64,000 nt of DNA from Thermodesulfovibrionales bacterium (GTDB lineage: Bacteria; Nitrospirota; Thermodesulfovibrionia; Thermodesulfovibrionales; SM23-35), in contig OY970295.1 of NCBI GenBank assembly GCA_963716185.1, positions 2,808,356 through 2,872,355 of the forward strand. The letters are read 5' to 3'. Position 1 is the stretch's first letter; the number at the start of each line of letters is the position of its first letter. The position numbers and the translations under genes are program-made. Positions 24,760 to 38,965 of this stretch are shown piece by piece. The notes under the pieces were generated by a model. That model worked only from the letters and a program-made list of their open reading frames with translations, searched no databases and had not been told where the DNA came from.

Positions 24760-24833
24760 TGGGGAGTCGTCCAGGGGCAGGACGGCAGACTCTGGATCTG
24801 CTTACAGGGGTTCGAATCCTCTCTCCCCAGCCA
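24760..24833 (+). tRNA. tRNA-Gln (anticodon CTG)
   Basis: Hand-folded cloverleaf: acceptor TGGGGAG/CTCCCCA, D stem GTCC/GGAC, anticodon stem GCAGA/TCTGC with loop CTCTGGA, T arm AGGGG-TTCGAAT-CCTCT, encoded CCA. Confidence 0.9.
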
Positions 24834-24837
24834 ATTC

Positions 24838-24913
24838 GGTCCCATCGTCTAGAGGCCTAGGACGTGGCCCTCTCAAGGCTAAAACACGGGTTCGAATCCC
24901 GTTGGGACCGCCA
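24838..24913 (+). tRNA. tRNA-Glu (anticodon CTC); integration target of the downstream islands
   Basis: Hand-folded cloverleaf: acceptor GGTCCCA/TGGGACC, D stem GTCT/GGAC, anticodon stem TGGCC/GGCTA with loop CTCTCAA, T arm ACGGG-TTCGAAT-CCCGT, encoded CCA. Confidence 0.9.
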
Positions 24914-24926
24914 ATAAAATCAATGA
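24869..24926 (+). repeat. att copy A: 3' 45 nt of tRNA-Glu plus 13 nt downstream (left boundary of island I)
   Basis: The same 58 bp recur perfectly at 37092-37149. Confidence 0.9.
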
Positions 24927-24927
24927 G

Positions 24928-26005
24928 TTATGCCTCATTATAGGCCGCTACATTTAAGGACTGTGCCCCTTTTTGTGCCCCCGACTTCATATCTAATACA
25001 GAAATAGCCTCTCTCAGGTTTTCAACTGAAAGATGAGCATATCTCTGAGTCATGCGGATATCTTTGTGTCCAAGCAATTTTGAGATTGTGTGAAGGTCAA
25101 CGCCTCTTTGTCTGAGATAACTCGCAAAAGTGTGTCTGAGGTCTGAGATCGTGGAAATGAAAGTTTTCTATTCCGGCAACTTCACACGCCTTTTTAAATA
25201 CCCGTTGAAGTTTAACTGGATATATTCTCTTACCGTTGTTGTGGAAGACGAAGTCTTCAATATCCTTTACTTTTTGCATTTCCCTGAATGTCTCAATTGC
25301 TTCAATCGTGAGCGGTAGCCCGATGCTCTCTTTGTTTTTCATTAGAGCGCCCTCGATTACCAAACACCGGGAAAAGAGATTTAGCCATGACCACTTCATG
25401 TTGAGAAGATTTGATTCTCTTAGACCTGTGTTAAGTGCGATTATCACTATAGATTTCAGCCATGCGGGGGCTGTCTTGTCATCGAGAGCATTAAACAGCC
25501 TGCCATATTCATCTTCACTGAGATACCGGACACGCTCATTTTTAACTTGCGGCATTTCGATTGAGTTTACAGGATTGTCCTTGATCCATTTCCATTTTTT
25601 AATGGCGACATTGAACATTCGTTTGAGAAGTCCCATTTCTTTTACTATTGTTGCGGGCATAATCCCCTTGGAATATCTATAACTCTCGTACTCTCCGATA
25701 AGTCTTTCAATGTCCTGTAACTGAGTGTCCTCTCCGAAGTAGGCTTCCAAGTGTTTAAAGATGCTTCTATCCCTTGCCTGATATTGTCTCCTTGAAGTGT
25801 ATTCGGCATCATATTTCTCAATCATCTCTTTTAGCGTTCTTCTTCGAGCCTCAATCCCAAACCATTCGCCTTCTGCAAGTTCATTTAAGACTTTTATCTC
25901 GATTTTTCTGGCAAGTTCCTTACTGCTTGTACCAGTTGACTTTCTTATTAATTTTCCTTGCCATTTAATCTTTATCCACCAGACTCGGCCCCTCTTTAAA
26001 AGCAT
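24928..26005 (-). pseudogene. tyrosine recombinase / phage-type integrase, frameshifted by a 7-bp tandem duplication
   Basis: The track ORF 25097..26005 ends ...HFHDLRPQTHFCELSQTKRR. Deleting one copy of gtctgag (25134-25140 / 25141-25147) restores HDLRHTFASYLRQRGVDLHTISKLLGHKDIRMTQRYAHL..., which carries the catalytic His and Tyr, down to a stop at 24928-24930. Confidence 0.85.
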
Positions 26006-28949: not shown

Positions 28950-29550
28950 AGGTAAGCCACTGGTTTGACCAGTGAGACTATAAAAGGTTTGACCTTGCAG
29001 GATTAAGTAAGATAAACCTCCAGAGAGGCTTGACGGTAGTCAAAGTCTATCTGGAGGTTTATGGATAGTTACAAGAGATTAACACACTCGAAGTACGATT
29101 GTAAGTATCATGTGGTATTTGTTCCCAAAGGTCGGAAGAAAACGCTCTTTGGGAAAATCAGGAAGTATCTGAAGGGAGTATTTCACGAATTGGCGCGGCA
29201 GAAGGGATGCGAGATCATTTCTGGGCACATGGCGATGGATCATGTGCACATGTGTATTTCGATTCCGCCGAAATACTCTGTCTCAGAGGTGATAGGGTAT
29301 CTGAAGGGCAAGAGTGCAATAGCCGTGGCACGGCAATTTGGAGACAAGCAGAGGAATTTCAATGGAGAAAACCTTTGGGCTCGCGGATATGCTGTGTCAA
29401 CGGTTGGCTTTGAGCTGGACAAGATCAAGGAGTACATTGCCCATCAGGAAAAGCTGGACAATGAACAAGAAGAGGGCAGGTTTTAGTATAAACCCAAACG
29501 GCCGTCTTTGAGACGGCTCATAACCGTCAAGCCTCCCTCTTTGAGGGAGT
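28950..29550 (+). mobile_element. IS200-type insertion sequence (tnpA only) with terminal hairpins; boundaries approximate
   Basis: Left hairpin cactggt-ttg-accagtg (28958-28974). An 11-bp stem aaacctccaga/tctggaggttt (29014-29024 / 29050-29060) covers the SD next to the ATG. Right hairpins are gccgtct-ttg-agacggc (29501-29517) and ctccctc-ttt-gagggag (29533-29549). Confidence 0.8.
29061..29486 (+). CDS. tnpA: IS200/IS605-family Y1 (HUH) transposase TnpA
   Basis: 141 aa. YDCKYHVVFVPKGRKK, HMAMDHVHMCISIPPKYS (HUH) and WARGYAVSTVG (catalytic Y). Confidence 0.92.
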   Translation: MDSYKRLTHSKYDCKYHVVFVPKGRKKTLFGKIRKYLKGVFHELARQKGCEIISGHMAMDHVHMCISIPPKYSVSEVIGYLKGKSAIAVARQFGDKQRNFNGENLWARGYAVSTVGFELDKIKEYIAHQEKLDNEQEEGRF

Positions 29551-30760: not shown

Positions 30761-31951
30761 ATGATGATAAGGAAATCACTACTTTTAAAAATATTTGATG
30801 CAGCATATATGCAGAGATGGAATGATAAAGTTCGACCTGTAGAATTAAGCGAATTAGATAAACAGGCTCATAAGATGCTTATTGCATATTTCTTAGGTAA
30901 ATTTGATGAAGATTCAAAGGGGTTTAGCTGGATAGAGATTATTGAGGGTGGTATCTTTGAACTTTTACAACGACTTGTTATTACTGATTTAAAACCACCA
31001 ATTTTTTATAAGATAAAAGCAGACCCCATTAAATATAGACAACTCAATGAATATGTTTATGGAGAACTGGAATCTATAATATCACCTCTTGGCAAAGATT
31101 TTTGTCGAAAGTTTAAAGACTATTTTACAAATTCAAAGGAGAACCTAAATCAAAGAATTCTTGCTGCTGCTCATTTTTATGCTACCAAATGGGAGTTCGA
31201 TATTATAGAGCGTTCAAATCCTAATGGATACGAGATAGCCCAAATAAAGGAACGACTCCAGAAAAAACAGGAAGAATACTATGATTTAAAAGGCATGGAT
31301 CAATTGACTAACAATATAAAGTATAGAGATTTCATTGATCTGTGTGGTCAACTTAGATTTCAGCAAAGATGGTCTAATTTCCACAGAATACCTAAAACCT
31401 CAGTCATAGCCCATTCATTATTTGTTGCAATATTGTCCTATTTATTCTCCCTTTCAATAAACGCTTGTAAAAAAAGGTCTGTAAATAATTATTTCACTGG
31501 CTTATTTCATGACCTGCCTGAAGTGTTAACAAGGGACATTATATCACCTGTAAAAAGATCTATTGAAGGATTAGTGGACTTAATAAAGGAGTATGAAAAA
31601 GAGCAGATGAGGATAGAGGTTTATGGTTTGATTCCGAAGGAATGGCATAAAGAAATAAGAATGTTTACTGAAAATGAGTTCGAAAATGTTGTAACTATAA
31701 ATCAGAAACTAACTAAAACTACAAGCAAAGAAATGAACCATAAATATAATGTTGATAAATATAATCCGAGAGATGGAGACATTGTCAAGGCAGCCGATGA
31801 CCTCGCTGCATTTATTGAAGCTTATTCAGCGATAAGGAATGGGAGTTCGCATGAGCAACTCCACGAAGCAAAAATGTCCATTAAAAGCAACTATGATAAG
31901 GCAAGTGTTTCAGGAATCAACTTTGGTGAAATATATGCCGATTTTGATTAA
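30761..31951 (+). CDS. HD-superfamily hydrolase, YfbR-like (5'-deoxynucleotidase fold) with a degenerate N-terminal repeat
   Basis: 396 aa. The C-terminal half aligns by eye to YfbR: LRFQQRWSNFHRIPKTSVIAHSLFVA, GLFHDLPEVLTRDIISPVK, IVKAADDLAAFIEA. The N-terminus repeats the first motif (YMQRWNDKVRPVELSELDKQAHKM) but lacks the HD dyad. Confidence 0.6.
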   Translation: MMIRKSLLLKIFDAAYMQRWNDKVRPVELSELDKQAHKMLIAYFLGKFDEDSKGFSWIEIIEGGIFELLQRLVITDLKPPIFYKIKADPIKYRQLNEYVYGELESIISPLGKDFCRKFKDYFTNSKENLNQRILAAAHFYATKWEFDIIERSNPNGYEIAQIKERLQKKQEEYYDLKGMDQLTNNIKYRDFIDLCGQLRFQQRWSNFHRIPKTSVIAHSLFVAILSYLFSLSINACKKRSVNNYFTGLFHDLPEVLTRDIISPVKRSIEGLVDLIKEYEKEQMRIEVYGLIPKEWHKEIRMFTENEFENVVTINQKLTKTTSKEMNHKYNVDKYNPRDGDIVKAADDLAAFIEAYSAIRNGSSHEQLHEAKMSIKSNYDKASVSGINFGEIYADFD

Positions 31952-32089: not shown

Positions 32090-32386
32090 ATGTCTATAAA
32101 GGAATTTATAGCCTTAAGGGAAGATATTGACAAGCTTATTGAGGAGACAAGAGATTGGATTCATAAAAAATCAATTACAAAATCTTGTAACCGAATCGAA
32201 AAATGCACTGAATTGCTCAATAGTCTCAATAGCTTGGCATCAGGTGATGTTCAAAATAGAGTGGTTTCAAATAGAAGAAATGAAATTGAATATTTAGCTA
32301 AACAGCTTGATGGAATATTATCAAAAAAAGAGGCAGGCAAAAAGGAGGATGGAAATATTGCCAATAAGAGCAAAAGACTAACATAG
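32090..32386 (+). CDS. hypothetical coiled-coil protein
   Basis: 98-aa ORF with no recognised motif. Confidence 0.35.
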   Translation: MSIKEFIALREDIDKLIEETRDWIHKKSITKSCNRIEKCTELLNSLNSLASGDVQNRVVSNRRNEIEYLAKQLDGILSKKEAGKKEDGNIANKSKRLT

Positions 32387-32395
32387 TAAAACAAA

Positions 32396-32424
32396 AGTGC
32401 CTCCACCAAATTAGCAGAGGCACT
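32396..32424. terminator. hairpin between convergent genes (8-bp stem agtgcctc/gaggcact)
   Basis: Followed on the minus strand by a T-rich run (tttgtttt), so it fits a rho-independent terminator for the HU gene. Confidence 0.5.
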
Positions 32425-32439
32425 CCCGATTCCAATAGA

Positions 32440-32712
32440 TTATTTTACTGCATCCTTGAAAGCCTTACCCGCCCTAAATTTTGGAATCTTTCTGGCAAGA
32501 ATTTTTATCGCTTCTCCCGTCCTCGGATTCCTTCCAATCCTGGCTTTCCTTTTGCCAACGTGGAATGTTCCGAAACCGATAAGGCTCACTTTACTTCCCT
32601 TCTTCAGTGCCTTCTTGATTCCATCAATCAGGGAATCGAGTGCTTTTTCTGCTTCTTTCTTGACAATCTTTGCCTCTTGTGCCATTTTGTCAATGAGGTC
32701 TGTTTTCGTCAT
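32440..32712 (-). CDS. hup: HU-family DNA-binding protein (island copy 1)
   Basis: 90 aa. GFGTFHVGKRKARIGRNPRTGEAIKI arm motif. Confidence 0.92.
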   Translation of the reverse strand: MTKTDLIDKMAQEAKIVKKEAEKALDSLIDGIKKALKKGSKVSLIGFGTFHVGKRKARIGRNPRTGEAIKILARKIPKFRAGKAFKDAVK

Positions 32713-32838
32713 ATATGCCTCCTCTTGATTGTTATGTAAAATTATATCAACTTCTTATTGTAAATCAACTGCATTTGTAAATTGTTCGATATATCATCAA
32801 TAATTAGTTATCATCAAAGATTAAGAGGCTATCCAATA

Positions 32839-34182
32839 ATGAAAGTTGGCAGAAATGACCCATGCCCCTGTGGGAGTGGTAAGAAATATAAAAAGTGCTG
32901 TCTCAGTGAAACCTATACCGAGGTGGGCAAAGAAGATTCTATTAGGGCAAGGCTCGTTGAGGAACTTCTTGGGTTCTTTAATAAGAACTATCTATACACC
33001 TTGGAAGATGCCGAGTTGCTGTTCTGGGATGACTTCATTCCAGAGGAGCATCTTCAAGGTATCACCCTTGATATAGCATACCAGAACTTCTGGGAGTGGC
33101 TTGTTTTTGACCACATGATTGATGTGGATAATGAAAAAACCCTCGTAGACCTGTATATGGAGAGTAAGAAACTATCCATAGATGAGCATAAAGTCTTAAG
33201 CATGATGAAAAATTCAGTTATAAGCCTTTACGAGGTTCAAGAGGTATTCCCTGAGAAAGGGCTATTGTTGAAAGACCTTCTAATAGGTGGAGAATATGAC
33301 GTAAGAGAAAAGTCTGCCACAAGAAGTGCCAGAAAATGGGACATCTTTGCTGCAAGACTGTTTCTTGTTGATAACACCCATATCATGAGTGGTTCTGTCT
33401 ATCCCTATAATTTACGACAGAAAGAAAGGATACTTGAGGACATCCATGCAGAGTTTAAGGATTACAAACAAGAAAAGGGTCCCGATGCTTCTATGGATGA
33501 TTTCTTAAAGTATAACAGCGAATACTTTAACTTCTATTGGTATGACTCAATCCAGAACCCTATCCCAATAAAATTGCATACGACAAGCGGGGAGCCATTA
33601 TTGTTTTCAAAGGCAATATTTGAAATAGGAAACAAAGAGGCTGTTTTGGATGGATTAGCAAAGATTAAGGGCTTTGAACAGGAAAAGGATAATTTTGTGT
33701 GGTTTGATAAACGTGACAAGGAAGGGAGTGCCACGATTCTCGGTAGGGCTGAAATAAAGGGCAACAAACTAATACTGGAGAGCAATTCTAAGGAAAGGAT
33801 AGAAGAGGGAAAGAGGCTTATCCTTGAGGCTTTATCAGATGCCGTTATCCACAAGGTAGACACTTTCCAAGACCCTATGGAAGCAATGAAATCGTACAAG
33901 GAGAGTCACACTGAGGGACCCGTAAATGAACTGCCGATGGAAATCCAACAGCAATTCTACACCGAATTTATGCAAAAACATTCTGAAAAGTGGTTAAGAG
34001 AGAAAATCCCTGCCCTGAATGGCAGAACCCCTATGCAAGCCGTAAAGACAGAAGAAGGCAAAAGAAAGGTCATTGAACTATTGAAATACATTGAAAACTC
34101 AGAGGAACATAACAAAAGGGAAGGCAGACCCTTTTATGACATCTCATGGATGTGGGAGAGGCTTAAGATTGAGAGAGAGTAG
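32839..34182 (+). CDS. protein with N-terminal SEC-C zinc-binding motif, function unknown
   Basis: MKVGRNDPCPCGSGKKYKKCC at the N-terminus, from the ATG at 32839 (track ORF starts at 32782). The C-terminal ...IPALNGRTPMQAVKTEEGKRKVIELL resembles antitoxin-type helical domains. 447 aa. Confidence 0.7.
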   Translation: MKVGRNDPCPCGSGKKYKKCCLSETYTEVGKEDSIRARLVEELLGFFNKNYLYTLEDAELLFWDDFIPEEHLQGITLDIAYQNFWEWLVFDHMIDVDNEKTLVDLYMESKKLSIDEHKVLSMMKNSVISLYEVQEVFPEKGLLLKDLLIGGEYDVREKSATRSARKWDIFAARLFLVDNTHIMSGSVYPYNLRQKERILEDIHAEFKDYKQEKGPDASMDDFLKYNSEYFNFYWYDSIQNPIPIKLHTTSGEPLLFSKAIFEIGNKEAVLDGLAKIKGFEQEKDNFVWFDKRDKEGSATILGRAEIKGNKLILESNSKERIEEGKRLILEALSDAVIHKVDTFQDPMEAMKSYKESHTEGPVNELPMEIQQQFYTEFMQKHSEKWLREKIPALNGRTPMQAVKTEEGKRKVIELLKYIENSEEHNKREGRPFYDISWMWERLKIERE

Positions 34183-34185
34183 GCA

Positions 34186-34500
34186 GTGAAACCGAAGAAA
34201 CCCAGAAAATCAGATCCATTCAAAGGCATGAAAAAAGTCATCCCCATCAGACCCCCTGAGAAGGAATTATCCTTTGAGGAGAAAGTTGAGAAGTTCGGAG
34301 AATACATGCATGATCCCGAACAGCACGGCAAGATATTCAGTGAGATGGGCTTTACCTATGTTGAAGATGGTTGTGGAGGTAATTGTGAAATCTGTGAACA
34401 AAAAGCCGACTGTACTGTTTACGAATCCGTTAAGGATTTTGAGATGTCCATAGAGAAAGAGAAGAAGACAAGAAAGGTAGTGCCTTTCAAGAAGAAATGA
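34186..34500 (+). CDS. hypothetical protein with a CGGNCEICEQKADC cluster
   Basis: 104 aa with a GTG start 3 nt after the upstream stop and lysine-rich termini. Confidence 0.5.
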   Translation: MKPKKPRKSDPFKGMKKVIPIRPPEKELSFEEKVEKFGEYMHDPEQHGKIFSEMGFTYVEDGCGGNCEICEQKADCTVYESVKDFEMSIEKEKKTRKVVPFKKK

Positions 34501-35090
34501 AAACCGCCATAGACCACAAGATAACCAAGCTGATAACAATGAGGGAGGACGTGGCGAAGGGAGAGGTCTTCCTGATTACTCGTTTGACCTCATTAAAAAG
34601 TATCTTTGAAACGAAAGCACAGGTGAATGATTTTGCATCCTACATAAGCAGAAAGACCCTATTGAGGATCGGTAAAACAAAACCCAAATATATTGATAAC
34701 TGGGAACAGGATAAAAAACTTATAAAAATTGCTATTACTACGGTTAGAAAGTATCTTGCCAACCCAAAGCAAGCCAGTACCGCTGAGTTAAGGGATGTTC
34801 TATATCGGTTAGAAAAGATTCAGGGATGGGGCAAGAATCCCTGGTGGTCGGGTCAATTGAGGATCATCAACAACTGCTATGCCCTAATCCTTGAAGATGC
34901 TTTATGCTGTATATTAGAGAAAGATATAGACGGCAGAAAAATATATGACATTGCAGCTCATTATGTACTGGCTTTTTCCAATAGTTTCGAAGGAGACATC
35001 ACAAAAAAATCTTTGCCCTATATAGATGATATCATCATATATCTGAGAAAGAACAACAAAACAATTAAAGCTATTACAACAAGAGGTTGA
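34497..35090 (+). CDS. hypothetical protein
   Basis: 197 aa. The start overlaps the upstream stop by 4 nt (ATGA). Confidence 0.5.
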   Translation: MKTAIDHKITKLITMREDVAKGEVFLITRLTSLKSIFETKAQVNDFASYISRKTLLRIGKTKPKYIDNWEQDKKLIKIAITTVRKYLANPKQASTAELRDVLYRLEKIQGWGKNPWWSGQLRIINNCYALILEDALCCILEKDIDGRKIYDIAAHYVLAFSNSFEGDITKKSLPYIDDIIIYLRKNNKTIKAITTRG

Positions 35091-35091
35091 G

Positions 35092-35853
35092 ATGGCCCAT
35101 ACAGGAAGAAACGATCCCTGCCCTTGTGGGAGTGGGAAGAAATACAAAAACTGCTGTCTGAATAGAAGTGGAAGAGACTATTTTGTCGAAAATATTAATA
35201 TAAGCAAGACAAGAGGGGATGATGACATTATTCCTGTAGACACGGTAATTGATTACGGGCAACCATTTACTGATGAATCTTTTTTTAATACCAACAGTGT
35301 GCATGAATTGTCAGGACCTCGATTACTTTATTCGCTGATCCTCAACCCCCATGTTGAGGAGTTAGCACATAAAGCAGTTCGTGGGTTTCTTAATAGAGGC
35401 AAAGAAGAAATGGATCGAATTATAAATGCTGATGATGTAAAGTCCCTGATAGAAATAATGAGGAGGAATCCAGACCCGATAAACCATGTACCACTCATGA
35501 AAAAGCTTGTAAGGTATAAGGAAGAGGCTGTGCCAATGATTCTTCGGGAACTTAAAGAGCCTCAAAATGATTCATTTGTAGAGCTTTCAGCCAGAATACT
35601 ACACAAGGCTGGAACAAATTACTCGAAGGATATTATTGATATTATTAAATCAGGCAACAACAGAAGAGCTTATGTAATTTCAGTGCTGTGTGTTCTGCTC
35701 GGTTTCTATGATAATGACGAATCTGAAAAACTGTTGTGGGATTACTATCATTGCATGAAGAATACATACCCGAATAATACCTATTCTGACGGTCCGTTGT
35801 TGGGCTTGAAAGAGATACGAGAAAGAAGAAGGGAAAAGGCATCCCTGAACTAA
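35092..35853 (+). CDS. second protein with N-terminal SEC-C motif
   Basis: MAHTGRNDPCPCGSGKKYKNCC. 253 aa. Starts 1 nt after the upstream stop. Confidence 0.7.
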   Translation: MAHTGRNDPCPCGSGKKYKNCCLNRSGRDYFVENINISKTRGDDDIIPVDTVIDYGQPFTDESFFNTNSVHELSGPRLLYSLILNPHVEELAHKAVRGFLNRGKEEMDRIINADDVKSLIEIMRRNPDPINHVPLMKKLVRYKEEAVPMILRELKEPQNDSFVELSARILHKAGTNYSKDIIDIIKSGNNRRAYVISVLCVLLGFYDNDESEKLLWDYYHCMKNTYPNNTYSDGPLLGLKEIRERRREKASLN

Positions 35854-35889
35854 TAAGAGAATATACTTAGGAGCGGGATTACCTTTGCC

Positions 35890-36303
35890 TTAAAATCCCA
35901 ACAATTCGGCGGTAATAGTTTTTGCAATATTGTCTTTTGGCATTCCTTTGCCCACATCATCCTGTATTCTTCTGTGCACTACGGCACATAACATCTCGAT
36001 ATTTTCTTTGTTATTTCCCCTGATATCCTCAAGAAGTGCCTTGTTCCCTGTCAAAAAGTTCTGAAGAGCTTCACTGGGAAAATACTTCTTGGTAGAGGTT
36101 ACAAAGTTATCAATGGACTTTCCGACAGCAATGGACGTACAGAGCATTATCGTCAGAAAGGAATAGAACTGAATTGTCTGTTCATCTCCGCTATCCTTGG
36201 CAATGTTCAATTGGATTTCTTCAAGAAGGTCTTTCTTGAACTCGGCAACAGTACAATCAGCCTTCCCGTTTCTGACATCTTCAGGCGTAAAATCCCATTT
36301 CAT
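35890..36303 (-). CDS. hypothetical protein
   Basis: 137-aa ORF, co-oriented with and 42 nt downstream of the second HU gene. Confidence 0.45.
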   Translation of the reverse strand: MKWDFTPEDVRNGKADCTVAEFKKDLLEEIQLNIAKDSGDEQTIQFYSFLTIMLCTSIAVGKSIDNFVTSTKKYFPSEALQNFLTGNKALLEDIRGNNKENIEMLCAVVHRRIQDDVGKGMPKDNIAKTITAELLGF

Positions 36304-36345
36304 AGGTTTATTAAAAAGTATTAAGGTCAGAGATAGATAAAATGC

Positions 36346-36618
36346 CTACTTTACTGAATCCTTGAAAGGCTTCCCGGCTGAAAATTTGGGTACTTTCCGA
36401 GCTGCAATCTTTATAGTTGCCCCAGTCTGAGGATTCCTTCCTGTCCGTGCTTTTCTTTTTGACACTGAGAATGATCCAAAGCCAACAAGTACAACCTTAT
36501 CCCCCTTCTTCAGAGCCTTAACAATGGAATCAATCGTTGCATTCAATGCCTTGCCTGCGTCAGCCTTTGAGAGTAAAGCTTCATTAGAGATTTTTTCAAT
36601 CAATTCTTCTTTTGTCAT
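36346..36618 (-). CDS. hup: HU-family DNA-binding protein (island copy 2)
   Basis: 90 aa. [26 protein letters not shown]. 58/90 positions are identical to copy 1 in my hand alignment. Confidence 0.92.
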
Positions 36619-37091
36619 AGAGTCCCTCCTTCAATATTGGTTGAGAGAAAGTATATCAAGAAGAAAGAATATAAACAAAAGGGGGAGAGCGGATCTTCCC
36701 GAAACTATTCAAGTTAAAAGAGGCTGGTGCGGTTATCGTGGGTTACCGATCGAGAGGGGAAAATTCCGCAGGGGCGTAAAATTACGTTTTCGTTAAAACT
36801 GGATCAGGGAAAAATTTTAAAATTTTGGCTACCTTCAAACTGGGGAAAAGCCGTTCTCCCGCTTTTTACTTTTTTGCTAAAGCAAAAAGTTCCCGAAATC
36901 TACCAAAACAAATTCGTTGACCTGCCAAAAGTATCTAAAAGACTGTGCCCCTTTTTGTGCCCCCTTAGCATGGAAAATAAGAGAAAATAATAGACACATT
37001 AGACACAATAGAAACTATAGAAATGGCTTAAAATAAGGCTTTGAAGGGAGACCAGCCACTATCAACGTTTTACAGAAAATCGCTTATTCGT

Positions 37092-37149
37092 CCTCTCAAG
37101 GCTAAAACACGGGTTCGAATCCCGTTGGGACCGCCAATAAAATCAATGA
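37092..37149 (+). repeat. att copy B: perfect 58-bp repeat of the tRNA-Glu 3' segment (island I / island II junction)
   Basis: cctctcaaggctaaaacacgggttcgaatcccgttgggaccgccaataaaatcaatga is identical to 24869-24926. Confidence 0.9.
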
Positions 37150-37716
37150 CTTACAACGTTTCTGCCTGTATCTTCTCATCTAAACGTGAAGAAAACGTGA
37201 AGTTGAGCTTCGACATTGCACTTCTCAACGAGTCTACATTGAGGTGTGCTAAAACCGTCAGTATTGCTCTCCTCCGAACAGAGAATAGGTTCCTGCTGTC
37301 CGTCAAAGAGGGTTCTCATAGTATCTTTTATCGCTTCATAAGTTCGAAATAATGTGCCGAAACAAATAGAATAGGATAGTCACCACTGAAAGAAAAACCA
37401 TACCCGAGACAGATAATATTCCTCTTAGAACATTTCTTAGATCTTCTACGGAGAGGCGTCCGGCCCACAGCAGTTGTATGAATGGCCACAGTATGTGCGG
37501 CGTTAGTTTCATCCTAATACGCATTTTGAACATGGGTCATTAGGTGAAGATTATTCTCGGAAATGTGCAGTCGAGGGGTTGCCGCGTTTGTGACTTCCGC
37601 CTATCGATACAGGTGATAAAATAAAATATATATCATATGGTCACAAGACTATCAAAGATTTCCTTGGGCACGGTAAAGATGGAATAGAATATAACGTTTT
37701 CAGTACCGGATCGCAT

Positions 37717-38965
37717 ATGAATAGGAAACAAGCACACATTCGGCATACTCCTAAATTAGGAGCTTTAGAAATCCTTAAATATATAGGGCCTGGATTTATT
37801 GTAACTGTCGGTTTTATAGATCCAGGAAATTGGGCTGCAAATGTAGCTGCCGGATCAATTTATGGATACAACCTTCTCTGGATGGTCACTCTCTCTACTA
37901 TCATGCTTATATTTTTACAGCATAATGCCGCACATCTGGGGATTGTTACCGGACTCTGCCTTGCTGAGGCTTCTACAAAATTCTTGGGTAAATGGATGAG
38001 CAGGGTATTCTTAGTCAGTGCAGTATTCGCAGCTATATCTACAGCTTTGGCAGAGATTCTTGGGGCTGCTATAGGGTTAAATATGTTATTCGGGATACCC
38101 CTTATTATCGGCTCATTTCTTACATCTATATTGGTCATCTGGATGCTCATTTCCAACAGTTATAGAAAATTAGAAAAATGGATTATTGGTTTTGTTGCAC
38201 TTATAGGCTTTCATTCATTATTGAATTAATTATCGTAAAATTCCAGTGGTATGAGGCTCTTAAGAACGGTTTTGTACCTTCTTTTCCTTTAGGCTCTATT
38301 CCAATTATCATGAGCGTTCTTGGAGCTATAGTAATGCCACATAACTTATTTTTGCATTCCGAAATCATCCAGAGTCGGCAATGGAATCTTCAAGATAAAC
38401 AGATTATAAGAAGGCAATCTAAGTTTGAATTTACAGATACACTCACTGCAATGGTTGCGGGATGGGCGATAAATAGCGCGATGATAATTGTAGCTGCATC
38501 AGTTTTTCATTCCCACGGGATAACCGTTACGGAACTGTCACAGGCGGAAGCAACTCTTAAACCACTTGCAGGAAATGCTTCTGCAATTATTTTTGCTCTC
38601 GCGTTAATCTTTGCAGGTTTTTCTTCATCAATTACAGCAGCACTGGCCGGTGGAAGCATTTACTCAGGCATTTTCCAAGAGCCCTTTGATATCTCTGATA
38701 ATCATTCACGCATAGGTATAATGTAACTACTTTGGGTGCTCTTCTTATTATTTTCTTCATCAGAGACCCTTTCCAGGGTCTTATCTGGAGCCAAATTGCT
38801 TTAAGCATTCAACTCCCGTGGACTATTTTCGCACTTATTTCCCTTACTTCGTCTTCCAAAGTCATGGACGACTTTTCCAATAGTAAAAGTAATAAATTAT
38901 CTCTTTGGTTCATCGCTGCTATAGTTTCTTTTTTGAATGTAATGCTGCTTATTCAGATAATCTAA
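37717..38965 (+). pseudogene. mntH: NRAMP-family divalent metal transporter, broken by two frameshifts
   Basis: Three consecutive track ORFs in different frames (37717-38229, 38178-38726, 38732-38965) together spell an NRAMP protein (GPGFIVTVGFIDPGNWAANVAAGS..., MPHNLFLHSEI...). Confidence 0.8.

What the first reader, a model, noticed from the sequence alone, without database searches (positions are those of the whole stretch)
32440..36618. HU-bracketed four-gene SEC-C cassette of unknown function (candidate undescribed system)
**Layout.**
- Four plus-strand genes are packed with gaps of 3, -4 and 1 nt: 32839-34182, 34186-34500, 34497-35090 and 35092-35853.
- The first and last genes both begin with the SEC-C zinc motif: RNDPCPCGSGKKYK(K/N)CC. 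In SecA this motif is C-terminal.
- The two middle genes (104 and 197 aa) match nothing I recognise. The 104-aa protein has a CGGNCEICEQKADC cluster.

**Flanks.**
- Two 90-aa HU paralogues bracket the block, with 58/90 identical positions by my hand count. Both lie on the minus strand.
- The right-hand HU is followed by a 137-aa unknown.
- The left-hand HU is divergent from the first SEC-C gene across a 126-bp spacer.

**Other points.**
- The large SEC-C protein ends in a helical segment (PALNGRTPMQAVKTEEGKRKVIELL) reminiscent of the toxin-binding domains of Xre/MbcA/ParS-type antitoxins.
- None of the members shows a catalytic motif.
- A duplicated nucleoid-protein gene, duplicated zinc-knuckle proteins and a location inside an integrative element together suggest a DNA- or nucleoid-associated module. 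Candidate roles are island maintenance or silencing, excision control, or defence.
Basis: partly seen in the sequence, partly recalled or inferred. Interest (0 to 1): 0.7.

Follow-up and report, generated by a model that had tools for sequence, protein, structure and literature searches.

The report
Mobile-element SEC-C/DUF2384 gene cluster beside HU genes
The four genes and two HU genes are real cargo of a 12-kb island inserted at a tRNA gene, and the largest gene belongs to a big uncharacterised family carried by transposons, plasmids and islands, so this is a mobile-element accessory module of unknown biochemistry, not a proven new system.

Summary

The "HU-bracketed four-gene system" is only partly conserved.
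- Gene C (197 aa) exists in about 10 sequence clusters.
- There it always abuts an N-terminal SEC-C protein, either D-type or a second full-length copy of A.
- B precedes C, or is fused to it.
- HU-R and the 137-aa gene are syntenic in one further lineage. HU-L is seen only here.

A is the anchor. Its family has at least 1,221 clusters and occurs on 142 plasmids.
- It is the only cargo of three minimal Tn3-family transposons (tnpA-tnpR-A).
- It abuts or overlaps a RecD2-like helicase gene in three Nitrospirota lineages.
- It lies beside HU/IHF genes in four independent lineages, against 0 of 74 control loci.

D-type proteins occur in defence islands. No catalytic or effector domain and no known defence system was found.

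Best reading, with 0.4 confidence: a mobile-element maintenance or conflict module that acts by protein binding. Function remains untested.

The parts
24869..24930 (+). attL: 62-nt direct repeat covering the 3' half of tRNA-Glu (tRNA at 24838-24913) plus 17 nt
   Evidence: the repeat finder family D1, 98% identical to 37092-37153. The tRNA is called.
25097..26005 (-). Tyrosine integrase of the island
   Evidence: Pfam Phage_integrase 82 bits, Phage_int_SAM_5, Int_N.
32392..32428 (-). Terminator-like hairpin (17-bp stem plus T run) downstream of HU-L
   Evidence: It lies in a 76-nt stretch that is 85% identical to an intergenic stretch of L100.
32440..32712 (-). HU-L, a 90-aa HU-family protein. 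This copy was not found in any other locus.
   Evidence: PF00216 115 bits. 64% identical to HU-R. No counterpart upstream of A in L127 or L006.
32713..32838 (.). 126-bp divergent spacer with back-to-back promoter-like sites
   Evidence: On the - strand, TTGATT-16-TATAAT (10/12, TG-extended) at 32768-32741. On the + strand, candidates at 32775-32804 and 32786-32814. These are consensus matches only.
32839..34182 (+). A: N-terminal SEC-C zinc knuckle, DUF7986 core and C-terminal DUF2384 (Xre/MbcA/ParS toxin-binding type) domain
   Evidence: Pfam. Precomputed PF25948. Family of at least 1,221 clusters. Plasmid and Tn3 homologues.
34186..34500 (+). B: 104-aa basic protein with a conserved Cx3Cx2Cx5C cluster. 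It is fused to C in one lineage.
   Evidence: Cluster conserved in five variants. Fusion protein P0005.
34497..35090 (+). C: 197-aa all-helical protein of a family that has no Pfam model
   Evidence: AF2 pLDDT 81, pTM 0.80. 10 close clusters. 209 representatives at 50% identity by profile search.
35092..35853 (+). D: 253-aa protein with an N-terminal SEC-C motif; the rest is unassigned
   Evidence: Pfam SEC-C only. Family of 182 clusters. Its slot is taken by a full-length A paralogue in L102-L104, L106 and L108.
35890..36303 (-). U137: 137-aa unknown, downstream of HU-R on the minus strand after a 42-nt gap
   Evidence: Syntenic with HU in L127 and L128. Truncated and without HU in L002-L005.
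36346..36618 (-). HU-R, a 90-aa HU-family protein, orthologous to the HU of L127 (76%) and L006 (72%)
   Evidence: PF00216 118 bits. tblastn.
37092..37153 (+). attR: second copy of the 62-nt repeat, the right end of the 12.2-kb island

Best explanation
**What it is.** The block is cargo of a 12.2-kb island integrated at tRNA-Glu. It is a mobile-element accessory module built round gene A.

**Gene A.**
- A belongs to a large cross-phylum family carried by transposons, plasmids and islands.
- The family has a conserved core (DUF7986), a C-terminal DUF2384 domain and an optional N-terminal SEC-C zinc knuckle.
- DUF2384 is the fold that antitoxins of RES/ParT/MbcT toxins use to grip their partner.

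**Inferred mechanism (not shown).**
- A is a non-catalytic binding protein that benefits the element that carries it, by stabilisation, addiction, exclusion or defence.
- It is expressed together with the element's DNA-handling genes.
- It acts by sequestering or releasing a partner through the tethered DUF2384 domain.
- B (a Cys4 metal site) and C (a helical protein) form a clade-specific adaptor pair. This pair docks on an N-terminal SEC-C protein, either A itself or the D-type protein that follows C.

**The HU genes.** They are not structural members of a fixed cassette. HU-R and U137 form a neighbouring convergent gene pair. HU-L is seen only in this island. Their recurrence next to A-type genes fits a shared place in the DNA-transaction and maintenance region of mobile elements.
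For: **Shown: island and operon layout.**
- att repeats and an integrase define the island. Its G+C is low.
- A-B-C-D are tightly packed. Promoter-like sites diverge from HU-L.

**Shown: co-conservation with rearrangement.**
- A-B-C-D synteny is kept in L001-L005, L097-L101 and L127-L130.
- A-(B~C fusion)-TPR occurs in L006. A-B-C-A' occurs in L102. C-A occurs in L103, L104, L106 and L108.
- In every C-subfamily locus with enough flank, C is followed by an N-terminal SEC-C protein.

**Shown: A family on mobile elements.**
- The family has at least 1,221 clusters.
- It occurs on 142 plasmids, 110 of them with at least 80% coverage of the query.
- It is the only gene besides tnpA and tnpR inside the terminal inverted repeats of three Tn3-family transposons. 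Its start abuts or overlaps tnpR. The three A-likes are 45-65% identical to each other.
- It lies next to repC and a resolvase gene, next to tyrosine recombinases, and among TA modules.
- In Nitrospirota chromosomes it sits in variable, TA-rich regions. In three lineages it abuts or overlaps a RecD2-like helicase gene.

**Shown: HU/IHF linkage.** HU/IHF genes lie within about 5 kb in 4 independent lineages of 26 contexts, against 0 of 74 control loci (1.18 Mb). Fisher p = 0.004 (Methylomonas and Legionella).

**Shown: conflict flavour.**
- The DUF2384 hit is above the Pfam cut-off.
- RES-Xre toxin-antitoxin pairs lie within 350 nt of A-likes in two plasmids.
- D-type proteins sit inside a type I R-M operon and beside a SIR2_2 giant protein.
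- Rugutis is a precedent: a single-gene abortive-infection protein with an N-terminal SEC-C motif (PMC11381338, PMC13064643).
- TA modules occupy an equivalent place, integrated in the transposition module of Tn3-family transposons (PMC7157771).
Against: - No effector, toxin or nuclease domain was found in any member. PADLOC hits are limited to the 20-residue SEC-C motif.
- No RES or ART partner is encoded in the cassette.
- A is 447 aa and lacks the HTH of true Xre antitoxins.
- A and D mostly occur without B and C. Remote C relatives occur without any SEC-C protein.
- The contexts equally fit a helper role in recombination or replication: tnpR, RecD2, repC and HU/IHF are neighbours.
- The control loci for the HU test are not matched for mobile-element content.
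- The AF2 model of A is poor (pLDDT 63), so no fold argument is possible.
- Nothing was tested experimentally.
Confidence: 0.4

Rival explanations
1. **DNA-transaction helper.** A-type proteins are accessory factors of the element's own recombination or replication machinery: resolvase, integrase, Rep, RecD2 helicase. HU/IHF act as architectural cofactors. B, C and D tune this in one clade.
For: - A-like genes are translationally coupled or abutting with tnpR in four plasmids or transposons.
- A abuts or overlaps recD2 in three Nitrospirota lineages within a syntenic neighbourhood of rhomboid and YjbQ genes.
- An A-like gene lies directly after repC and before a resolvase gene, with a RecD-like helicase gene 4.6 kb away.
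- IHF-beta and HU genes lie immediately downstream on a Methylomonas plasmid.
- HU enrichment has p = 0.004.
- Here, promoter-like sites diverge between A and HU-L.
Against: - TnpR-type resolvases need no protein helper (established knowledge of Tn3 resolution).
- No DNA-binding domain was detected in A-D apart from a possible role for the zinc knuckle.
- DUF2384 is known only as a protein-binding antitoxin domain.
- Genes on mobile elements are near recombinases by default.
- Many A copies stand alone among TA modules.
Confidence: 0.25
2. **Autoinhibited single-chain toxin-antitoxin or abortive-infection protein.**
- The conserved central domain of A is a cryptic effector. Its invariant positions include Y131, E132, D146, E157 and R173.
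- The tethered C-terminal DUF2384 domain holds it in check in cis.
- A trigger, for example a phage protein sensed through B/C/D or the SEC-C knuckle, releases it.
For: - A-type genes mostly occur alone.
- They occupy a place in the Tn3 transposition module like that of TA pairs (PMC7157771).
- The DUF2384 domain follows a low-confidence linker, residues 345-363.
- The most conserved block across phyla is central: residues 128-186.
- Contexts are rich in defence and TA genes.
- Rugutis is a precedent (PMC11381338). The fused-TA logic itself is known from CapRel (own knowledge).
Against: - No toxin fold or motif was recognised, and the central domain could not be modelled.
- There are no PADLOC or PHROGs hits beyond the motif.
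- Homology to Rugutis could not be tested.
- The very high conservation, 60-80% identity among more than 100 clusters, is not typical of fast-evolving sensors.
Confidence: 0.15
3. **Classical two-partner toxin-antitoxin pair.** C is a toxin neutralised by the DUF2384 domain of A. B and D are accessories.
For: - A has a DUF2384 domain.
- A and C are tightly coupled, and both gene orders occur.
- The C subfamily is small and patchy.
Against: - C is an all-helical protein with no RES or ART similarity.
- The A family is about 100 times larger than the C subfamily and is mostly found alone.
- Remote C relatives lack any DUF2384 neighbour.
- An antitoxin of 447 aa without an HTH is atypical.
Confidence: 0.08
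4. **No functional unit.** The genes are independent island cargo that happen to be adjacent. The two HU genes are ordinary element-borne nucleoid proteins.
For: - A, C and D families each occur alone elsewhere.
- HU-L is not conserved.
- The right flank differs in the closest relatives, L002-L005.
Against: - Overlapping or abutting reading frames.
- The B~C fusion.
- The invariant 'C followed by an N-terminal SEC-C protein' rule across three arrangements.
- 80% DNA identity over the whole 3.8 kb from A to HU-R in L100, although the A gene has diverged to 64% protein identity.
Confidence: 0.12

Closest known systems
Xre/MbcA/ParS antitoxins of RES/ParT/MbcT type II toxin-antitoxin systems (Pfam PF09722, DUF2384)
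   Same: A carries the C-terminal toxin-binding domain at 35.2 bits, above the Pfam cut-off. The profile weakly reaches ParS 6d0h (E = 0.41). Two A-likes lie within 350 nt of real RES-Xre pairs.
   Different: A is 447 aa, not about 100-150 aa. It has no Xre HTH. Instead it has a SEC-C knuckle and a DUF7986 core. No RES or ART toxin gene is adjacent. NCBIfam Xre_ParS_antitoxin scores 27.9 bits against a cut-off of 90.
Rugutis, a single-gene lactococcal plasmid Abi-like antiphage protein (PMC11381338; PMC13064643)
   Same: The SEC-C motif is at the N-terminus of an otherwise novel protein. It is carried by a mobile element and has no recognisable effector domain. Bacillota proteins of 330-370 aa share A's first roughly 160 profile positions (L056).
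   Different: Rugutis is 359 aa and works alone. Homology is therefore untested.
Toxin-antitoxin modules integrated in the transposition module of Tn3-family transposons (PMC7157771)
   Same: A-like genes sit in the transposition module next to tnpR. In three cases they are the only other gene between the terminal repeats.
   Different: This is one 450-aa gene, not a two-gene TA pair. It lies downstream of tnpR, not next to res site I. Its function is unknown. The paper does not mention it.
SecA, YecA and YchJ metal-binding domains (Pfam SEC-C, PF02810)
   Same: The same CxCx8CC zinc-knuckle motif, with PDB sequence matches to SecA and YchJ peptides.
   Different: The motif is N-terminal here. 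There is no SecA ATPase, UPF0149 or NTF2-like domain. The knuckle is dispensable in the family, because alphaproteobacterial A-likes lack it.
HU/IHF genes carried by plasmids and islands (element-borne nucleoid-associated proteins; own knowledge)
   Same: Two canonical 90-aa HU genes lie inside an integrative island. HU/IHF genes lie next to A-likes on Methylomonas and Legionella plasmids.
   Different: No evidence ties these HU proteins functionally to A-D. The bracketing arrangement is not conserved.

Membership tests
Xre/MbcA/ParS-RES type II toxin-antitoxin system | Antitoxin carries the C-terminal DUF2384 toxin-binding domain | tested here: met
   PF09722 at A residues 383-419, 35.2 bits against a cut-off of 24.5.
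Xre/MbcA/ParS-RES type II toxin-antitoxin system | Antitoxin has an N-terminal Xre-type HTH and is small (about 100-150 aa) | tested here: not met
   No HTH family hit. A is 447 aa with SEC-C and DUF7986. The NCBIfam subfamily model scores 27.9 against a cut-off of 90.
Xre/MbcA/ParS-RES type II toxin-antitoxin system | Adjacent RES or ART-fold toxin gene | tested here: not met
   B, C, D and U137 have no RES or ART hit in Pfam or NCBIfam. C is all-helical.
SEC-C + DUF7986 + DUF2384 family (Pfam PF25948; uncharacterised) | Full-length homology to family members, including the DUF7986 core | tested here: met
   Precomputed PF25948 on the identical protein and on its homologues. The A1 profile covers positions 1-447 in Nitrospirota loci and about 80-446 in plasmid homologues. 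My own hmmscan of the local Pfam copy did not list PF25948.
SecA/YecA/YchJ-type SEC-C proteins | SEC-C zinc-binding motif | tested here: met
   PF02810 at 40 bits in both A and D.
SecA/YecA/YchJ-type SEC-C proteins | Motif at the C-terminus of a SecA ATPase, UPF0149 or NTF2-like protein | tested here: not met
   The motif lies at residues 5-23. No such domains were found.
Rugutis antiphage protein | N-terminal SEC-C motif on an otherwise novel protein | tested here: met
   description in PMC11381338.
Rugutis antiphage protein | Sequence or fold homology beyond the motif; antiphage activity | not testable with these tools
   The Rugutis sequence is not held. tblastn of a Bacillota relative against the plasmid collection found no lactococcal match.
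Known anti-phage defence systems (PADLOC-DB) | Match of any member to a system protein model over more than a short motif | tested here: not met
   Only 20-25-residue SEC-C matches to PDC-S12 and CBASS E2 models. B, C, U137 and the HU proteins gave nothing.
DUF416 / YjaG (for protein C) | Fold and profile similarity to DUF416 | tested here: not met
   Foldseek against 3f7c gives probability 0.82 but E = 0.31 and TM = 0.41. hhalign of the 67-sequence C profile against E. coli YjaG gives probability 0.7%. There is no Pfam DUF416 hit in 67 members.
HU family (flanking genes) | Full-length Bac_DNA_binding domain of 90 aa | tested here: met
   PF00216 at 115 and 118 bits over positions 1-90. Both score below the HU-alpha and HU-beta equivalog cut-offs.
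tRNA-integrated genomic island | Direct repeat of the tRNA 3' end at both ends, an integrase next to the tRNA, and deviant composition | tested here: met
   62-nt repeat. Integrase. G+C 0.388 against 0.47.

The most novel reading that the evidence does not exclude
The A family could be a previously unrecognised core accessory of mobile elements across phyla. It is the third gene of minimal Tn3-family transposons and a partner of RecD2-like helicases and HU/IHF genes. In Thermodesulfovibrionia it would assemble with a Cys4 protein (B), a helical protein (C) and a second SEC-C protein (D or A') into a multi-protein maintenance or conflict system. That system would have no known effector domain, and would therefore work by a new mechanism. 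One possibility is a single-chain effector held in check by its own antitoxin-type domain.
Probability: 0.25. Interest if true: 0.75.

Novelty: new variant of a known kind. Interest (0 to 1): 0.5.

Why it matters
- A protein family with more than a thousand sequence clusters rides on transposons, plasmids and islands in several phyla. It is the sole cargo of some minimal Tn3-family transposons. It has no described function.
- Knowing what it does would explain why mobile elements keep it. The candidates are stabilisation, exclusion, defence, or help with recombination.
- It would also extend the use of the DUF2384 'toxin-gripping' domain beyond classical antitoxins.
- The window offers the richest version of the module (A with B, C and D, plus element-borne HU genes). 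It is therefore a good entry point for experiments.
- If the genes prove unrelated in function, the finding reduces to ordinary island cargo.

Tried and rejected
1. **C as a DUF416/YjaG protein.** E. coli yjaG does sit next to hupA. The link rests only on a weak Foldseek hit (TM 0.41). Profile tests reject it.
2. **A related to the DUF3843 proteins that precede remote C relatives.** hhalign found nothing.
3. **D as a clear truncated paralogue of A.** Outside the SEC-C motif the similarity is only 25% over 65 aa (E = 0.001). The A profile covers only the motif in D-like proteins. I keep only the positional argument, that A' replaces D.
4. **A as part of a transposon-like unit in Nitrospirota.** DNA similarity stops at the ORF ends.
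5. **Known defence systems, phage families and RNA families.** PADLOC and PHROGs gave only motif-level hits. Rfam gave only the two tRNAs. There were no relatives in viral contigs or phage genomes. The BFVD fold search was empty.
6. **The genome-contig scan for A.** It was swamped by the SEC-C motif and yielded only six true relatives.
7. **Finding Rugutis or a lactococcal homologue in the plasmid collection.** None was found.
8. **Fold assignment for A.** The model was too poor (pLDDT 63). Only weak local hits to TBP-like or RnlA-like alpha/beta domains appeared.
9. **Literature searches.** Searches for DUF7986, SEC-C with DUF2384, SEC-C with RecD2, and Tn3 with Sphingobium found nothing on this family.

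Full report
**1. The observation**

The layout is exactly as described. A (32839-34182, 447 aa), B (34186-34500, 104 aa), C (34497-35090, 197 aa) and D (35092-35853, 253 aa) lie on the + strand with gaps of 3, -4 and 1 nt. HU-L (32440-32712), U137 (35890-36303) and HU-R (36346-36618) lie on the - strand. The HU-L/A spacer is 126 bp.

Pfam finds SEC-C at A 5-22 and D 6-23, at 40 bits each. It also finds the Xre_MbcA_ParS_C (DUF2384) domain at A 383-419, with 35.2 bits against a cut-off of 24.5. The two SEC-C motifs are the only ones in the 64-kb window.

The HU proteins are canonical (PF00216, 115 and 118 bits) and 58/90 identical. B, C and U137 match nothing in Pfam, NCBIfam, PADLOC or PHROGs. 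PADLOC hits to A and D cover only the 20-residue motif.

**2. The island**

tRNA-Gln and tRNA-Glu lie at 24760-24913. A 62-nt direct repeat, 24869-24930 and 37092-37153 (98% identical), delimits a 12.2-kb element.

Its cargo includes:
- a tyrosine integrase (25097-26005), an HTH_3 regulator and an IS200-type transposase;
- PAS, cupin and HD_3 proteins;
- the whole HU-L ... HU-R block.

G+C is 0.388 inside against 0.47 and 0.465 outside.

**3. Operon signals**

The 126-bp spacer holds back-to-back promoter-like sites. The minus-strand site has a 10/12 match with an extended -10 element. HU-L is followed by a 17-bp-stem terminator. HU-R lies upstream of U137 on the minus strand with a 42-nt gap, convergent with A-D. 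These are consensus matches only.

**4. Is the cassette conserved?**

C has only 10 close clusters in 5.8 billion proteins. Contexts come from exact-protein look-ups and a metagenome scan.

| Arrangement | Loci |
|---|---|
| A-B-C-D (with U137 where the flank is present) | L001-L005, L097-L101 |
| RecD2-like helicase, A, B, C, D, U137(-), HU(-) | L127-L130 (= L100) |
| RecD2-like helicase, A, B~C fusion (301 aa), TPR gene, then HU 1.2 kb on | L006 |
| A-B-C-A' | L102 |
| C-A | L103, L104, L106/L007, L108 |

- In L100, DNA is 80% identical to the window over 32842-36645.
- In every C-subfamily locus with enough flank, C is immediately followed by an N-terminal SEC-C protein, either D-type or a full-length A paralogue.
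- B precedes C or is fused to it, except in the C-A group. B's Cx3Cx2Cx5C cluster is conserved in five variants.
- This pattern of fusion, order change and partner replacement argues for a functional link between A-type proteins, B and C.
- The bracket is not conserved. HU-L has no counterpart elsewhere. HU-R and U137 are syntenic only in L127 and L128. In the closest relatives (L002-L005) U137 is truncated and followed by MacB/FtsX genes.

**5. Each family is wider than the cassette**

*Family A.* It has at least 1,221 clusters. The best 120 are 61-100% identical and come mostly from Thermodesulfovibrionia and Nitrospirota. On long contigs A often stands alone.
- Its neighbours there are PIN, HEPN/MNT, HigBA-like and SocA modules, IS110, a group II intron and a small terminase gene.
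- In three lineages it abuts or overlaps a RecD2-like helicase gene, within a neighbourhood that shares YjbQ or rhomboid genes.

*Family C.* A profile search finds 209 representatives at 50% identity. None has a Pfam domain.
- Its remote members have no A, B, D, SEC-C or HU neighbour.
- They often follow a DUF3843 protein, which shows no similarity to A.

*Family D.* It has 182 clusters.
- D-like genes sit inside a type I R-M operon between hsdS and hsdR (L147).
- One lies beside a Schlafen/AlbA_2 ATPase and a SIR2_2 protein of more than 2,300 aa (L150).
- Beyond the motif, D resembles A only weakly: 25% over 65 aa, E = 0.001.

**6. The A family on plasmids and transposons**

tblastn finds the A core, without the motif, on 142 plasmids. 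In 110 of them the match covers at least 80% of the query. Most are Alphaproteobacteria, with Methylomonas, Legionella and Rhodococcus as well. The alphaproteobacterial proteins lack the SEC-C knuckle, so it is an optional add-on.

In three sphingomonad plasmids, 37-63-nt terminal inverted repeats enclose only tnpA, tnpR and the A-like gene. These are L132 1706-7046, L146 1005-6134 and L145 1098-6291. The A-like start abuts or overlaps tnpR. The three A-likes are 45-65% identical, so this is an old architecture.

Other contexts:
- tnpR followed by an A-like gene in Agrobacterium;
- an A-like gene just outside a Tn3-type transposon in pSmeSM11b;
- directly after repC and before a resolvase gene, with a RecD-like helicase gene 4.6 kb away;
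- a tyrosine recombinase upstream and ImmA/IrrE downstream;
- a 9.8-kb plasmid with four TA-type modules or toxin genes;
- RES-Xre pairs within 350 nt, in two plasmids.

No relatives occur in phage genomes or viral contigs.

**7. HU linkage**

An HU profile finds HU/IHF genes near A-type genes in these places:
- the window lineage (window, L127, L006);
- L007, beside a second A copy;
- a Methylomonas plasmid, where IHF-beta lies 36 nt and HU about 0.4 kb downstream of the A-like gene;
- a Legionella plasmid.

That is four independent lineages of 26 contexts. None occurs in 74 control loci (1.18 Mb) that share only the SEC-C motif. Fisher p = 0.004. The controls are not matched for mobile-element content, so the enrichment is suggestive and not conclusive.

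**8. Structure**

C models well (pLDDT 81, pTM 0.80) as an eight-helix protein. It has no significant PDB or viral match. The DUF416 lead fails profile tests.

A models poorly (pLDDT 63). The cross-phylum conserved block at 128-186 is unmodelled. Residues 257-343 form a confident alpha/beta region with only weak local matches. A low-confidence linker (345-363) precedes the helical DUF2384 end. By sequence, A's profile reaches only SEC-C peptides and, marginally, ParS.

**9. Interpretation**

*Shown.* This is island cargo. A, B and C are linked. A belongs to a mobile-element-borne family. HU/IHF, recombinase and RecD2 neighbours recur. No catalytic or effector domain was found.

*Inferred.* A-type proteins are non-catalytic binding proteins that serve the element that carries them.
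- I give 0.4 to a maintenance or conflict role. This means addiction, exclusion or defence, with DUF2384 sequestering a partner and B/C acting as a clade-specific adaptor on SEC-C proteins.
- I give 0.25 to a helper role in the element's recombination or replication with HU/IHF.
- I give 0.15 to the sharper variant, an autoinhibited single-chain effector.
- I give 0.08 to a classical A:C toxin-antitoxin pair.
- I give 0.12 to unrelated cargo.

Two precedents bear on this. Rugutis is a single-gene Abi-like protein with an N-terminal SEC-C motif, triggered by the phage large terminase subunit (PMC11381338, PMC13064643). TA pairs can be integral parts of Tn3 transposition modules (PMC7157771). 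Neither paper describes this family, and literature searches found no description of it.

**10. Verdict**

The cluster is not a member of any described system. It is a new arrangement built on a Pfam-catalogued but uncharacterised family. Interest is moderate (0.5). The most valuable by-product is that this family is the sole cargo of three minimal Tn3-family transposons and recurs beside HU/IHF and RecD2 genes.

Noticed in passing
L132 1706-7046; L146 1005-6134; L145 1098-6291 (sphingomonad plasmids): Minimal Tn3-family transposons carry, between their 37-63-nt terminal inverted repeats, only tnpA, tnpR and an A-like gene. That gene lacks the SEC-C motif and has DUF7986 plus DUF2384. The three A-likes are 45-65% identical. 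No description was found in the literature searches.
   Followed up: partly
L147 6310-10843; L150 7001-14753: D-type SEC-C proteins lie inside a type I R-M operon, between hsdS and hsdR, overlapping an unknown 234-aa gene. Another lies next to a Schlafen/AlbA_2 ATPase and a SIR2_2 protein of more than 2,300 aa. These are defence-island contexts.
   Followed up: partly
L112, L118-L120, L124, L125: Remote relatives of C (25-34% identical) are immediately preceded by DUF3843 proteins of 516-946 aa. This may be a second, unrelated two-gene pairing for the C family.
   Followed up: partly
window 37717-38965: The Nramp transporter gene just right of attR is split over at least two reading frames (37717-38229 and 38178-38726). 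It is probably a pseudogene.
   Followed up: no
window 24956-24982 and 36938-36964: A second direct repeat of 27 nt (96% identical) lies just inside both ends of the island. It could be integrase arm sites or a remnant of an earlier element.
   Followed up: no
window 32375-32450; L100 2047-2120: A 76-nt stretch containing the HU-L terminator hairpin is 85% identical to an intergenic stretch 4 kb upstream of A in L100. It may be a repeated palindromic element.
   Followed up: partly
window 29061-29486 and 30761-31951: The island cargo also includes an IS200-type Y1 transposase. It also includes a 396-aa HD_3/YfbR-like (5'-deoxynucleotidase-type) protein with a long N-terminal extension of about 190 aa that matches no family.
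   Followed up: no
L139 7540-8762; L146 6412-7138: Genuine RES-Xre(DUF2384) toxin-antitoxin pairs lie within 350 nt of A-like genes on Rhodococcus and Sphingomonas paucimobilis plasmids.
   Followed up: no
L134 154-624; L135 9396-9665; L144 3055-3306: Small WGR-domain genes recur within a few kb of A-like genes on Legionella, Acidibrevibacterium and Ruegeria plasmids.
   Followed up: no
L009 1147-4914: In a Thermodesulfobacteriota contig, the A-like region (SEC-C ... DUF2384) lies in one 1,255-aa reading frame with about 780 N-terminal residues of HEAT and TPR repeats. This echoes the TPR gene after the B~C fusion in L006.
   Followed up: no
L140 3005-4054 (E. coli K-12): yjaG (DUF416) lies directly upstream of hupA. 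I checked this because of a weak fold hit of C to DUF416. No sequence relationship to C was found.
   Followed up: yes
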